Positions 61,256-64,000 of a stretch of 64,000 nucleotides of DNA are shown here, piece by piece. Positions within the stretch are counted from its first letter, which is position 1; the number at the start of each line of letters is the position of its first letter. A program made the position numbers and the translations under genes. The stretch comes from a virus: the UHGV virus genome UHGV-0149956; one strand, written 5' to 3'. Below the pieces are notes generated by a model. The model saw only the letters and a program-made list of their open reading frames with translations, searched no databases and was not told where the DNA came from.

Positions 61256-61676
61256 CCTGTGCGAGATTTATTACGTAACTTCTGCGGATTTGCTGAGTAA
61301 CAGGGAAAATCCGATACAACGGGTTAATGAACGAGTCGCCATGCGTAACCATGACGTTGAAATGCCACAGTCGCTCTCCTTTACCCATATATTCAGTGGG
61401 TATGTACAACCATTCACTGTTTTCGCCCTGTTCAGCCGACGTCAAACAACGTTGTTCGCCTTCAATCACTGTCGTCGGCTTCTGAACATCGCGGATCCAA
61501 TATCTGACCGTTGCGCCGCGCAAAAACGGGAATTTAGACCGGTATTTGAACGGCACCCGGATGAAACCCGGTTTAATTTCCACATCACCAAGTTCTAAAT
61601 GCGTGATGTCCTTGCGTTTTAGCAAATAGCGATCGGCTAAGGCTAACGCAAGAACGCATACACCCCAGCCAATCAT
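61233..61676 (-). CDS. lydB: lysis regulator (putative antiholin)
   Basis: 147-aa ORF downstream of the holin gene; named by synteny. Confidence 0.45.
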   Translation of the reverse strand: MIGWGVCVLALALADRYLLKRKDITHLELGDVEIKPGFIRVPFKYRSKFPFLRGATVRYWIRDVQKPTTVIEGEQRCLTSAEQGENSEWLYIPTEYMGKGERLWHFNVMVTHGDSFINPLYRIFPVTQQIRRSYVINLAQDVSDDEK

Positions 61677-62002
61677 TTCCCGCCTCCCTTTTTCACCAAA
61701 CTTGTAAGAACATTCAGAATGCTATCGATATTCACTCGTTTCATCCCTGAAATCACCTCATGACCGTTATTGCTGGCTATCGTTACCATTAAGTACGTAA
61801 TTGATAACTCCCAGCCCTCGTGTTGCCCCAATAGGTACGCCACCGCGCCAGCTGTCACTGCAACAAAGATCTCCGTAACCAATCCCAACAAATTGCCAGA
61901 CTGGCGACCGTCTCGGACATCCATCAGGAACGTGCCTATCCCACCAATTACTGAAAGCAGGAGCGCAATAGCAACTGGAGCTAATTCCTGTGTGTCAAGC
62001 AC
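61673..62002 (-). CDS. lydA: holin
   Basis: 109 aa with two or three TM helices (VAIALLLSVIGGIGTFL, VTEIFVAVTAGAVAYLL) and charged C-terminus. Confidence 0.6.
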   Translation of the reverse strand: MLDTQELAPVAIALLLSVIGGIGTFLMDVRDGRQSGNLLGLVTEIFVAVTAGAVAYLLGQHEGWELSITYLMVTIASNNGHEVISGMKRVNIDSILNVLTSLVKKGGGK

Positions 62003-62076
62003 AAGTTCCCTCCTACGTTGTCAGGAGGTAATGGTATGCAAAGTAACTTCTCAACCGGTTATGTTGCATAAGAGAC

Positions 62077-62340
62077 TTACCTATTCAACCGACTTTTGGA
62101 ACCTTCAATAATAAGCCTGCTATTGGCGCTGAAAATAAGAACCATGCAGCTCTGAAGGCTTTCATTCATGTCCTTATATTCCGCGAGATACATGCCAATA
62201 AAGCCAGCAAGTACGGCGGAAATACATTCGGCCAGCAATTTCTTGCATGAAGACTCGTAACGGTTTTCACATAGCCCACTCAAATACGAATACACCCCAC
62301 CAAGAAGGGATAACATCACGATATGTACATAAAATGTCAT
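62077..62340 (-). CDS. small membrane protein, holin-like
   Basis: 87 aa, two hydrophobic segments; first gene of the lysis/dar strand. Confidence 0.4.
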   Translation of the reverse strand: MTFYVHIVMLSLLGGVYSYLSGLCENRYESSCKKLLAECISAVLAGFIGMYLAEYKDMNESLQSCMVLIFSANSRLIIEGSKSRLNR

Positions 62341-62467
62341 TTTTTACCTATACAACAGTAAGTTGAACAACATTTGAGAACGGTATGCACTTTGTGATTT
62401 CCACACACACTGGTTTTGTTAATTAAAACCTGTAGCTTGCAATAAATAACGATAGTGGGCAGAAAAT

Positions 62468-62660
62468 ATGCTAATAGGCTATGTACGCATATAGACAAAT
62501 GAACAAAACACAGCTATGCAGTGAAAAGCACTTGAAAGCGCAGGATGTGAGCTAATTTTTGCGAATAAGGCGAGCAGCAAAAAAGCTGGGCACCCTGGGT
62601 TAAAAAAGGTTCTGCGTATGCTTTCCAGAGGTGATACCCTAGTCTCGGACTAGGGACAAC
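62468..62660 (+). pseudogene. decayed N-terminal remnant of a Cin-type DNA invertase gene
   Basis: Translates as MLIGYVRI*TNEQNTAMQ*KALESAGCELIFANKASSKKAGHPGLKKVLRMLSRGDTL, about 85 percent identical to the Cin N-terminus as I recall it but with two in-frame stops, ending after 64 codons. Confidence 0.7.
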
Positions 62661-62775
62661 ATTTCGAGAACAGTTTTCATTAGCGGTCAGCAGGCGCTAG
62701 ATACATCGAATTGATGTGCCGCGCGATAAATGTACCTATTCTATCAAGATAAATTACACCGACGCGGCATTAGAA

Positions 62776-63348
62776 TTACAGCTCAGATTGAGTTTGGCGC
62801 TTCTCTACAGGATGATAACGATAAATCGTCGATACACCGATATCGTAAATAATTGCCAACTGTTTCCTGCTGTAGCCATTTTCGATCAACCTCGCTATTT
62901 GCTCATGTTGTTCTTTTGTCAACTTCGGGCGACGTCCGCCAATGCGTCCCTGTTCGCGTGCAGCTGCCAGTCCGGCCAGTGTTCTCTCAACAATTAATTC
63001 ACGTTCCATTTCTGCTAAAGCACCCATGACATGAAAAAAGAAACGCCCCATGGGTGTTGATGTGTCAATACTGTCTGTCAGACTACGGAAATTAACACCT
63101 TTTTCCCGCAACTCCTCTATAAGCGTGATAAGGTGTTTCATACTTCTGCCAAGCCTATCCAGCTTCCAGACAACCAGCGTATCTCCTTCTGATAACGTTC
63201 TGAGCAGCTTTTTCAAGCCTGGTCTGGCTGACTTTGTTCCGCTTATTTTATCTTCAAAAATCAGTTCACATCCTGCGCAGTTCAGTGCATTTCTTTGTAA
63301 ATCTGTGTTTTGGTCATTTGTTGACACACGAATGTAGCCAATTTGCAT
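62776..63348 (-). CDS. cin: Cin/Gin/Hin-family serine DNA invertase
   Basis: MQIGYIRVSTNDQNTDLQRNAL (catalytic Ser), VVWKLDRLGRSMKHL, C-terminal HTH (KQLAIIYDIGVSTIYRY); start set at ATG 63348. Confidence 0.9.
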   Translation of the reverse strand: MQIGYIRVSTNDQNTDLQRNALNCAGCELIFEDKISGTKSARPGLKKLLRTLSEGDTLVVWKLDRLGRSMKHLITLIEELREKGVNFRSLTDSIDTSTPMGRFFFHVMGALAEMERELIVERTLAGLAAAREQGRIGGRRPKLTKEQHEQIARLIENGYSRKQLAIIYDIGVSTIYRYHPVEKRQTQSEL

Positions 63349-63404
63349 GAAAAACAACCTCTTTGTTTAGTTAAAAATACATCGTTGGTATAGGTAGGGA
63401 TTAA

Positions 63405-63430
63405 GACTAAAACGTTGGTTTAGGGGAAGG
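63405..63430. other. cix-like crossover site 1
   Basis: Reverse complement CTTCCCCTAAACCAACGTTTTAGTC resembles cix/hix/gix sites; sits at the start of cassette 1. Confidence 0.45.
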
Positions 63431-63848
63431 CTCGGCGCTGCCCGTTGGTGTACCTGTTCCATGGCCCTCCGCCACACCACCAACGGGGTGGCTGAAATGT
63501 AACGGAGCAGCATTTTCTTCTGAAAAGTACCCAAATCTGGCAAAGGTTTACCCCACTAATAAATTGCCGGATCTACGGGGCGAATTTATTCGAGGTTGGG
63601 ATGATGGACGAGGTGTGGACAATGGGCGAGCATTATTAAGCAGCCAAGAGGCTACAAACTTTTCTCAGCGTGCCGGAAATATAGGCGATGGTGCAGGGCA
63701 CGCAATTAATTTTCATGATGGCATCGTCGGAAATCAGCCAGGATTTTCACGATTTAATTTCACCAGTAACTCTGTAGGTGATGGTATAAATTTTGTTGCT
63801 GTCAGGCCGCGAAATATCGCATTTAATTACATCGTAAGGGCGGCATAA
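63411..63848 (+). other. tail-fibre C-terminal variable cassette 1 (promoterless in this orientation)
   Basis: Open frame from the cix site: ...PTGWLKCNGAAFSSEKYPNLAKVYPTNKLPDLRGEFIRGWDDGRGVD... typical of phage tail-fibre C-termini. Confidence 0.7.
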
Positions 63849-63869
63849 AAACGTTGGTTTGGGGGAAGG
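63844..63869. other. cix-like crossover site 2
   Basis: CATAAAAACGTTGGTTTGGGGGAAGG, second copy of the cix-like sequence in the same orientation. Confidence 0.45.
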
Positions 63870-64000
63870 CTCAGCATTGCCCGTTGGCGTGCCCGTTCCG
63901 TGGCCCTTAGAAACACCGCCAACGGGGTGGCTGAAATGTAACGGAGCAGCATTTTCTTCTGAAATGTATCCCAAACTGGCAAAGGCCTACCCCACCAATA
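63850..64000 (+). other. tail-fibre C-terminal variable cassette 2 (partial, runs off window)
   Basis: Translates NVGLGEGSALPVGVPVPWPLETPPTGWLKCNGAAFSSEMYPKLAKAYPTN, about 90 percent identical to the first 50 codons of cassette 1. Confidence 0.65.

What the first reader, a model, noticed from the sequence alone, without database searches (positions are those of the whole stretch)
62468..64000. Invertase locus rebuilt: decayed cin remnant beside a different intact invertase and tandem cix-bounded tail-fibre cassettes
Seen in sequence: at 62468-62660 on the plus strand there is a 64-codon remnant of a Cin-type invertase N-terminus with two in-frame stops. About 120 bp away on the opposite strand is an intact but clearly different Cin-family invertase (62776-63348). 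Beyond it, two tail-fibre C-terminal cassettes (63411 and 63850) each begin at a cix-like site, in direct orientation, and share a near-identical first 50 codons before diverging; cassette 1 is only 146 codons with no chaperone gene after it. Established knowledge: P1 has a single C segment with two alternative fibre ends, whereas the related plasmid p15B carries a multiple-inversion (Min) system with six crossover sites. Inference: an ancestral cin was displaced by a Min-type invertase plus multi-cassette module, so the element may express more than two host-range variants.
Basis: partly seen in the sequence, partly recalled or inferred. Interest (0 to 1): 0.7.

Follow-up and report, generated by a model that had tools for sequence, protein, structure and literature searches.

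The report
p15B-type Min tail-fibre shufflon

Summary
A truncated cin pseudogene covers 59 Cin-homologous codons (62468-62644), with stops at codons 9 and 19. An intact 190-aa serine invertase lies at 62776-63348 on the minus strand. Two directly oriented crossover sites have cores at 63415/16 and 63854/55, and each opens a Collar-domain tail-fibre tip cassette.

One linear mapping makes window 61493-63324 collinear with GenBank X62121. It reproduces every P1/p15B homology block noted in the P1 GenBank record. Each half of both 26-bp sites is identical to a half of a published p15B mix site.

The invertase is 82% identical to Pin, 74% to Cin and 72% to Gin. The remnant is Cin-type (83% to Cin, 63% to the neighbouring invertase).

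Close relatives (up to 99% identical) continue into 8-9 sites and nine cassette types, with a single tail-fibre assembly gene. The same cassettes occur in different orders and orientations between records, in patterns that inversion-only recombination predicts. The arrangement is present in 123 of 5,426 complete E. coli genomes.

Verdict: already known, low interest. The only mildly new point is the larger cassette repertoire in modern relatives.

The parts
62077..62340 (-). lydC holin gene. This is the last P1-backbone gene before the locus and is included for context.
   Evidence: ORF of 87 aa. Annotated as LydC or phage holin in relatives and in P1.
62379..62467 (+). Decayed cin promoter and leader region, homologous to the P1 P1cin/P2cin region.
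   Evidence: Part of the 262-nt block that is 89.7% identical, with 1 gap, to P1 31570-31832. The predicted -10 hexamers are altered. No promoter-like site was found by the scan.
62468..62644 (+). psi-cin: the first 59 codons of a Cin-type invertase. There are stops at codon 9 (the catalytic Ser position, 62492-62494) and codon 19 (62522-62524). The gene is truncated after GDTLV.
   Evidence: There are 20 nt differences from P1 cin in 177 nt, and 10 codons have a changed meaning. The sequence is identical in pLAO48 and p160070-MCR.
62637..62655 (.). Perfect 8+3+8 palindrome CCCTAGTC-TCG-GACTAGGG straddling the point where P1 homology ends (62644/62645).
   Evidence: Read directly from the sequence.
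62645..62775 (.). 131-bp spacer that shows no similarity to the P1, e14 or Mu regions compared. It contains a terminator-like hairpin just after the min stop codon (62770-62756, minus strand).
62776..63348 (-). min: an intact Din-family serine DNA invertase, 190 aa, with its ATG at 63348.
   Evidence: Resolvase and HTH_7 domains. It is 82% identical to PinE, 74% to Cin and 72% to Gin. The exact sequence is in UniRef100 cluster Q05517_ECOLX and was seen on at least 1000 contigs. It hits PHROG 125, DNA invertase, at E=1e-98.
63254..63324 (-). Homologue of the Fis-dependent recombinational enhancer that lies inside the 5' end of cin (min nt 25-95).
   Evidence: The enhancer is annotated in P1. 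The stretch is about 84% identical to the P1 enhancer, and it maps onto p15B nt 6463-6533, which the P1 record lists as 83% identical. Function here is inferred.
63371..63394 (+). Degenerate second copy of the outer site region (TTAAAAATACATCGTTGGTATAGG), 30 bp upstream of mix site 1.
   Evidence: the repeat finder family D1, 79% identity. Its significance is unknown.
63403..63428 (+). Outer mix site, core TT at 63415-63416. The reverse complement reads TTCCCCTAAACC AA CGTTTTAGTCTT.
   Evidence: The fixed half, CGTTTTAGTCTT, is identical to the L-flank half of the published p15B mix site. The other half is identical to that of other mix sites.
63411..63848 (+). Silent tail-fibre tip cassette 'A': 145 codons plus a stop, with no start codon of its own at the site. 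It is read only when joined to the constant fibre gene.
   Evidence: Collar domain. It aligns with the C-terminal end of tail-fibre PHROGs 3100 and 523 at E about 1e-64. It matches solved fibre tips 9cuy and 2xgf. The same cassette is found in other positions in other plasmids.
63842..63867 (+). Internal mix site, core TT at 63854-63855. The reverse complement reads TTCCCCCAAACC AA CGTTTTTATGCC. The stop codon of cassette A (63846-63848) lies inside it.
   Evidence: Both halves are identical to published p15B mix half-sites.
63850..64000 (+). Start of the second silent cassette, cut by the end of the window. It is type 'F' in relatives.
   Evidence: Collar domain at E=4e-10. It is 151/151 nt identical to the type-F cassette starts in L006, L008 and L009.

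Best explanation
This is the invertase-proximal end of a p15B-type Min multiple DNA-inversion system on a P1-like phage-plasmid.

The Din-family serine invertase Min, helped by host Fis bound to an enhancer inside the 5' end of min, recombines pairs of inverted 26-bp mix sites. Each site sits at the 5' edge of a promoterless cassette that encodes an alternative C-terminal tip of the tail-fibre protein S.

Cassettes on the min side all point away from min. That is why the two seen here are direct repeats. Cassettes on the fibre-gene side point the opposite way. Every inversion spans the point where the two sets converge, and swaps blocks of cassettes between the two sides. Whichever cassette lands on the constant part of S is expressed. 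One prophage can therefore produce virions with many different receptor-binding tips.

The psi-cin fragment is an inert scar. It marks the event in which a Pin/e14-like invertase-plus-cassette module replaced the Cin/C-segment of a P1-like ancestor.

Shown here: the gene identities, the site identities, collinearity with p15B, and cassette shuffling between related records. Inferred: activity in this particular element, the dependence on Fis and the enhancer, and the effect on host range.
For: **The window matches p15B**
- Each half of both sites is identical to a half of a published p15B mix site.
- One mapping, window = 69787 minus the X62121 coordinate, reproduces all four P1/p15B homology blocks recorded in the P1 GenBank entry, with matching identities. 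The values are 89.7% with 1 gap, 99.8%, 83.3% and about 84%, against the recorded 89% with 1 gap, 99%, 84% and 83%.

**The genes are what they appear to be**
- The invertase is intact and is 82% identical to Pin, 74% to Cin and 72% to Gin. Its exact sequence is widespread.
- The remnant is Cin-type, truncated at codon 59, and carries two stops.
- The e14 pix sites and e14 stfE/tfaE are 79-87% identical to the Min sites and cassettes.

**Relatives show the rest of the system**
- Relatives hold 8-9 sites and nine cassette types.
- The fibre-proximal junction in p160070-MCR is exactly the published mix site that carries the R (fibre-gene) flank.
- The same cassettes appear in different order and orientation between records. 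They obey the invariants of inversion-only recombination: all plus-strand cassettes lie on the min side, all minus-strand cassettes lie on the Sc side, and the C and D+tfa pair is always innermost.
- The model gives 240 isomers for six sites, which matches the figure I recall for p15B (the p15B number is from memory).
- Cassette A sits next to min in only 26 records, against many more whose match breaks after the conserved cassette start. A is also found elsewhere, so the outer site is used.

**Literature**
- PMC5786510 reports a relative's segment (pMCR_SCKP-LL83) as 99% identical to the p15B min region.
- PMC6109161 summarises Min function.
Against: - The window stops at 64000. Only two sites, both direct, are visible, so the inverted partners, the constant fibre gene and the chaperone gene are seen only in relatives.
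- No read-level evidence of inversion exists for this element.
- X62121 itself was not available for direct alignment. Identity with p15B rests on published site sequences and on coordinates quoted in the P1 record.
- I could not verify that UniRef Q05517 is the p15B min product.
Confidence: 0.93

Rival explanations
1. The locus has Min architecture but is frozen in this element, so inversion no longer occurs. The cause could be a lost partner site, an IS insertion, or a disrupted constant fibre gene beyond the window. The cassettes would then be silent relics.
For: Some relatives are damaged. pS13-1 has ISApl1-mcr-1 inserted in the central segment. pJIE250-3, pSvP1 and pTZ20_1P are described as having impaired switches (PMC6906374). 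Several records carry frameshifted cassettes. The window itself cannot show the partner sites.
Against: min is intact and identical to the widespread allele. Both visible sites match published mix half-sites perfectly. Cassette A has an open frame. Arrangements differ between close relatives, which indicates recent activity in the lineage.
Confidence: 0.05
2. The psi-cin fragment is not just a scar but has been kept for a function. It might act as a second Fis-binding enhancer, since it covers cin nt 19-90, the annotated Cin enhancer. Alternatively it might be a source of transcription running antisense into min.
For: The fragment spans the whole annotated Cin enhancer. It is identical in three independent records. 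It is convergent with min.
Against: It differs from the P1 enhancer at about 11 of 72 positions. The predicted cin promoters have altered -10 hexamers, and the scan finds no promoter-like site. Half of its changed codons are replacements or stops, as expected for neutral decay. Identity among relatives is no more than the flanking backbone shows. min has an enhancer homologue of its own.
Confidence: 0.05
3. The locus is a simple two-state switch like P1 Cin or Mu Gin, and the second cassette is only a local tandem duplication.
For: Only two sites are visible, and the starts of the two cassettes are 87% identical.
Against: The two sites are direct repeats, so they cannot bound an invertible segment. 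Cassette 2 is 100% identical to a distinct cassette type with a different core in relatives. The relatives examined that carry this arrangement have 5 or more sites.
Confidence: 0.01

Closest known systems
Min multiple-inversion system of E. coli 15T- plasmid p15B (GenBank X62121; Iida 1990; Sandmeier et al. 1990, 1991, 1992)
   Same: The gene order is the same: lydA, lydC, psi-cin, min (inverted), mix site, tandem tip cassettes. The spacing is identical over the roughly 1.8 kb that can be mapped. The 26-bp site halves are identical. The logic is the same: a constant fibre gene joined to alternative 3' cassettes.
   Different: Nothing in the visible part differs. Relatives of the window carry 8-9 sites and nine cassette types over about 5 kb, against six sites over 3.5 kb reported for p15B. 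Whether the window's own element has the larger set is unknown.
Pin system of the cryptic prophage e14 (pinE, pixL/pixR, stfP-tfaP / tfaE-stfE)
   Same: It has the closest invertase, at 82% identity. The site sequence is nearly the same: CATAAACG TT GGTTTGGGAGAAGG. In both, the 5' end of the invertase gene abuts the invertible DNA. The cassettes and the tfa gene are 79-87% identical at the DNA level.
   Different: e14 has two sites, one invertible segment, and a chaperone gene for each fibre end. Min has many sites, single-cassette segments, and only one tfa gene.
Cin / C-segment of phage P1
   Same: It occupies the same genomic slot, between lydC and the S-R tail-fibre operon. It belongs to the same invertase family and has the same purpose, host-range switching. 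psi-cin is 83% identical to the Cin N-terminus.
   Different: P1 has an intact cin transcribed toward the segment, two cix sites, and two long Sv cassettes, each with its own U chaperone. Here cin is a 59-codon pseudogene, and the cassettes are short Collar-domain tips.
R64-type shufflons (Rci) and the Rin shufflon of bifidophages
   Same: Both use multiple inversions among clustered sites to shuffle alternative C-terminal ends of one adhesin or receptor-binding gene.
   Different: Those systems use tyrosine recombinases (PMC6109161). This one uses a serine invertase.

Membership tests
Din-family serine DNA invertases (Hin/Gin/Cin/Pin/Min) | A protein of about 190 aa with an N-terminal resolvase catalytic domain, including the active-site serine in the VSTxxQ motif, and a C-terminal HTH. 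| tested here: met
   Resolvase E=2e-51 and HTH_7 E=3e-15. The protein is 190 aa and starts MQIGYIRVSTNDQ.
Din-family serine DNA invertases (Hin/Gin/Cin/Pin/Min) | High pairwise identity (about 60-80%) with characterised members. | tested here: met
   82% to PinE, 74% to Cin and 72% to Gin.
Din-family serine DNA invertases (Hin/Gin/Cin/Pin/Min) | 26-bp crossover sites with a 2-bp core and the dix consensus half-site TTC---AAAC-. | tested here: met
   The sites read TTCCCCTAAACC AA CGTTTTAGTCTT and TTCCCCCAAACC AA CGTTTTTATGCC.
Din-family serine DNA invertases (Hin/Gin/Cin/Pin/Min) | A Fis-dependent enhancer within the 5' part of the invertase gene. | tested here: inconclusive
   min nt 25-95 is about 84% identical to the annotated Cin enhancer. 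Fis binding cannot be tested with these tools.
Min system of p15B | mix site sequences as published for X62121. | tested here: met
   Each 12-nt half of both window sites is identical to a half of a published mix site, including the unique L-flank half CGTTTTAGTCTT.
Min system of p15B | Gene order lydA, lydC, cin-5' remnant, min, Min region, collinear with X62121. | tested here: met
   A single coordinate mapping reproduces four annotated homology blocks with matching identities.
Min system of p15B | An invertase identical or nearly identical to the Min protein. | tested here: inconclusive
   The sequence is an exact member of UniRef100 Q05517_ECOLX. I could not confirm that this accession is the X62121 min product. 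A related plasmid's invertase is reported as 98.5% identical to Min (PMC6906374).
Min system of p15B | More than two crossover sites, arranged as overlapping invertible segments. | tested here: inconclusive
   The window shows two direct sites, which implies that at least a third, inverted site exists. Relatives up to 99% identical have 8-9 sites. The window's own continuation is not available.
Min system of p15B | A constant 5' part of a tail-fibre gene ending at a mix site and joined to alternative 3' cassettes. | tested here: inconclusive
   This lies beyond the window. In p160070-MCR the junction ...SVLDYLGLGEGSALPVGV... lies at the exact mix site that carries the R (fibre-gene) flank.
Min system of p15B | Inversion actually occurs, so isomers exist. 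| tested here: inconclusive
   Related records carry the same cassettes in different legal arrangements. Isomers within a single population cannot be tested without reads.
Cin / C-segment system of P1 | An intact cin gene and two cix sites bounding one segment with Sv-U and Sv'-U'. | tested here: not met
   cin is reduced to 59 codons with two stops. There is no homology to the P1 C segment beyond 62644.
Rci-type shufflon | A tyrosine recombinase and asymmetric sfx sites. | tested here: not met
   The recombinase is a serine resolvase/invertase.

The most novel reading that the evidence does not exclude
The element in the window may carry an enlarged Min shufflon, as its closest relatives do, with eight or nine cassettes rather than the six of p15B. 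That would allow about 10,000-80,000 isomers. Only one cassette would be followed by a tail-fibre assembly gene, so most tips would have to fold without a dedicated, co-inverted chaperone. The cassette repertoire would also turn over between plasmids. In the open-access literature I could search, I found only a one-line mention that one relative's ~5-kb segment resembles the p15B min region.
Probability: 0.55. Interest if true: 0.3.

Novelty: already known. Interest (0 to 1): 0.15.

Why it matters
It matters little as a discovery, because the Min system, its substitution for a Cin-like system, and its role in tail-fibre variation were described for p15B in 1990-92.

It also points to a possible follow-up. 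Min-bearing P1-like phage-plasmids often carry mcr-1 or ESBL genes, and they carry up to nine alternative receptor-binding tips. That is relevant to how widely these resistance vectors can infect.

Tried and rejected
1. I tried to read the original p15B papers and reviews (PMC329034, PMC53420, PMC206102, PMC523184, PMC4384473). None is held. I therefore relied on the P1 GenBank annotation and on secondary papers that reproduce the mix sites.

2. In my first seven loci, cassette A always sat next to min, and I suspected that the outer site was inactive. I rejected this. The sample was biased by the query, and a targeted search shows other cassettes at that position in most records, with A found elsewhere.

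3. I considered that the residual cin promoters drive antisense transcription into min. The -10 hexamers are altered, and the promoter scan finds nothing. I kept this only as a low-probability rival.

4. An imperfect 17-19-nt direct repeat, CAACATTT(C)GAGAAC, flanks psi-cin. I estimated roughly a 4-10% probability of such a match by chance in a region this size, so I did not interpret it.

5. I searched for recent literature on Min in phage-plasmids and found nothing beyond one-line mentions.

6. Searches with 25-kb chunks of the window found no single source record. The best hits cover 90-93% at about 98% identity, which is a typical mosaic.

Full report
**What is in the sequence**

The last 9 kb of the window is P1 backbone. 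It runs ddrB, ddrA, darA, hdf, lydB, lydA and lydC, all on the minus strand, and is 96.5% identical to P1 up to position 62644.

From 62379 the sequence matches the cin promoter region of P1. From 62468 it matches the cin coding sequence. The reading frame carries TAG at codon 9, which is the position of the catalytic serine, and TGA at codon 19. Homology stops after codon 59, at ...GDTLV. The 59 codons are 83% identical to Cin but only 63% identical to the neighbouring invertase. They hit Pfam Resolvase at E=2.8e-9. Of the 17 changed codons, 10 are replacements or stops, which fits neutral decay.

After a 131-bp spacer comes an intact 190-aa invertase on the opposite strand (62776-63348). It has Resolvase and HTH_7 domains.

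Sixty-seven bp beyond its ATG lies a 26-bp crossover site with its core at 63415/16. A second copy in the same orientation lies 439 bp further on, with its core at 63854/55. No match is expected by chance.

Each site opens an in-frame cassette that starts NVGLGEGSALPVGVPVPWP... and has a Phage Tail Collar domain. Cassette 1 is 145 codons. It ends ...RPRNIAFNYIVRAA, and its stop codon lies inside the next site. It matches the C-terminal ends of tail-fibre families and solved fibre tips.

The two cassette starts are 45/50 aa and 131/151 nt identical. The Cin-derived part of the remnant is 59 codons, not 64. The divergence of cassette 2 lies beyond the end of the window.

**What it is**

The 26-bp sites settle the identity. 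The six p15B mix sites are reproduced in PMC3241671, Table 3.

- Read on the other strand, window site 1 is TTCCCCTAAACC AA CGTTTTAGTCTT. Its fixed half is identical to the unique L-flank half of the published outer mix site.
- Window site 2 is TTCCCCCAAACC AA CGTTTTTATGCC. Both halves are published mix halves.

The P1 GenBank record lists which stretches of P1 are homologous to p15B (locus ECP15BG, X62121), with coordinates. A single mapping, window = 69787 minus the p15B coordinate, places all four stretches on the window with matching identities:

| Stretch | Window vs P1 | Recorded for p15B vs P1 |
|---|---|---|
| cin promoter and 5' end | 89.7%, 1 gap | 89%, 1 gap |
| lydA/lydB | 99.8% | 99% |
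| lydC | 83.3% | 84% |
| enhancer region inside the invertase gene | about 84% | 83% |

The window is therefore collinear with X62121 from lydB through min without any length change. The cin remnant was already present in p15B.

The invertase is 82% identical to PinE of e14, 74% to Cin and 72% to Gin. Its exact sequence belongs to UniRef100 cluster Q05517_ECOLX and occurs on at least 1000 contigs. I believe that accession derives from the p15B entry, but I could not verify it.

The e14 pix sites, and e14 stfE/tfaE, are 79-87% identical to the Min sites and cassettes. In both elements the 5' end of the invertase gene abuts the invertible DNA. This agrees with the published view, recalled from the 1992 J. 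Bacteriol. abstract, that Min is a Pin-like module substituted into a P1-like genome.

**What lies beyond the window, from relatives**

The locus is common. 106 plasmid records and 123 of 5,426 complete E. coli genomes hold the whole 1.7-kb query.

I fetched seven relatives that are 92-99% identical. They show 5 to 9 mix sites in a single locus. One further record, discussed below, has the block duplicated.

p160070-MCR has nine sites and nine cassette types, which I labelled A to I. They are 145-170 codons long. Each has a conserved Collar-domain start of about 70 aa, a variable core of 60-90 aa, and the conserved end ...TRPRN(I/V)AFNYIVRA-stop. The fibre-proximal junction there is exactly the published mix site that carries the R (fibre-gene) flank, TTCCCCCAAACC AA GGTAATCAAGAA.

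Only cassette D is followed by a tail-fibre assembly gene (PHROG 105, E=1e-92). Cassette C faces that gene, so D-tfa-C forms one central segment, like the single segment of e14.

P1 homology resumes in the constant fibre gene about 300 bp before the fibre-proximal site. The substituted block therefore runs from cin codon 59 to that point.

The window's cassette 1 is type A. The visible 151 nt of its cassette 2 are 100% identical to type F, the same A-F order as in pPE15-92K.

**Evidence that the system shuffles**

The same cassettes occur in different order and orientation in different records:

- p160070-MCR: +A +I +B +F +E +D-tfa | -C -H -G-Sc
- pLAO48: +A +B +C | -D-tfa -E -F -G -H-Sc
- pNR329_1: +A +I +G +E +C | -D-tfa -B -F ...

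If recombination occurs only between inverted sites, three things must always hold:

- All cassettes on the min side point away from min.
- All cassettes on the fibre side point the other way.
- The C and D-tfa pair always stays innermost.

A breadth-first enumeration confirms these invariants, and every locus obeys them. The same model gives 240 configurations for six sites, the number I recall being reported for p15B. It gives 10,080 for eight sites.

This also explains why the two sites in the window are direct repeats: they sit on the min side.

A targeted search shows that cassette A sits next to min in only 26 plasmid records. Most other min-bearing records break after the conserved cassette start, and A occurs elsewhere. 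So the outer site takes part in recombination.

**How it most likely works**

By analogy with Hin, Gin and Cin (established knowledge), Min dimers bind two inverted mix sites. They assemble with Fis at the enhancer inside min, whose homologue lies at 63254-63324, about 90 bp from the outer site. They then exchange strands at the 2-bp core. Deletion between direct sites is disfavoured.

Each inversion that involves the fibre-proximal site puts a new cassette in frame with the constant part of S, and this changes the receptor-binding tip.

- Shown here: the parts, the site identities, and shuffling at the lineage level.
- Inferred: activity in this element, the dependence on Fis, the host-range consequences, and how tips other than D fold. 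The tfa gene is co-oriented with the expressed cassette in only half of the configurations.

**Rivals**

- A frozen relic is possible, because some relatives are damaged. pS13-1 has ISApl1-mcr-1 in the central segment, and impaired switches are described in PMC6906374. However, min and both visible sites are intact.
- A retained function for psi-cin, as a second enhancer or as a source of antisense transcription, is not excluded but has no support. Its promoters have decayed, the scan finds none, and its substitutions look neutral.
- A two-site switch is excluded by the direct orientation of the sites and by the distinct identity of cassette 2.

**Comparison and novelty**

This is a member of the p15B Min system. 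It is neither a variant nor a new rebuild. The literature already notes that one relative's putative invertible segment (pMCR_SCKP-LL83) is 99% identical to the p15B min region (PMC5786510). It also describes Min as a serine-recombinase shufflon that gives variable tail fibres (PMC6109161).

The only mildly new point is that present-day relatives carry more cassettes than the six reported for p15B. I could not find this discussed. It cannot be checked for the window itself.

Verdict: observation confirmed, interpretation supported, already known, interest about 0.15.

Noticed in passing
window 62637-62655: A perfect 8+3+8 palindrome, CCCTAGTC-TCG-GACTAGGG, sits exactly where P1/cin homology ends (62644/62645). 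The first 8 nt after the loop are the reverse complement of the last 8 cin-derived nt. This could be the signature of a fold-back or template-switch event at the ancient breakpoint. It is conserved in pLAO48 and p160070-MCR.
   Followed up: partly
window 62368-62385 and 62652-62670: An imperfect direct repeat, CAACATTTGAGAACGGT and CAACATTTCGAGAACAGT, brackets the whole cin promoter-plus-remnant block of about 283 bp. By my rough estimate the chance probability is only about 4-10%, so it may be meaningless.
   Followed up: partly
window 63371-63394: A degenerate second copy of the outer mix-site region, 79% identical over 24 nt, lies 30 bp upstream of the real site, between the min ATG and the invertible DNA. 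It could be a relic site or part of the min promoter or regulatory region.
   Followed up: no
L009 9112-14045 (p160070-MCR), L001 13112-17602 (pLAO48), L010 (pNR329_1): Relatives carry 8-9 mix sites and nine cassette types over about 5 kb, against the six sites over 3.5 kb reported for p15B. The cassette sets differ between plasmids: pLAO48, for example, lacks type I, and pNR329_1 encodes different protein variants of several cassettes. Only one cassette (D) has a tail-fibre assembly gene after it.
   Followed up: partly
L006 13718-16513 (pS13-1, CP047090.1): ISApl1 and mcr-1.1 are inserted at the convergence point of the shufflon, just after the tfa gene in the central D-tfa-C segment. The colistin-resistance module therefore sits inside DNA that the invertase flips.
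   Followed up: no
L007 8477-9049 and 12280-12852 (NZ_LR882977.1): The block from lydB through lydA, lydC and psi-cin to min and cassette A appears twice in this record, with 12 site matches in all. This is either a real duplication or a misassembly of a mixed population of inversion isomers.
   Followed up: no
L002 12475-13046 (phage vB_EcoM-673R5, ON470615.2) and L001 16599-17602: In the phage record, min is annotated as two genes, 'Hin1' and 'Hin2', and several cassettes are frameshifted at G-runs inside the mix sites. pLAO48 shows similar single-G losses, in two sites and in the constant fibre gene. These look like homopolymer sequencing errors rather than biology.
   Followed up: partly
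window 1-50000: No single plasmid record covers more than about 93% of either 25-kb chunk, at about 98% identity and in 2-7 pieces. The element is therefore a mosaic P1-like phage-plasmid rather than a copy of any deposited one.
   Followed up: partly
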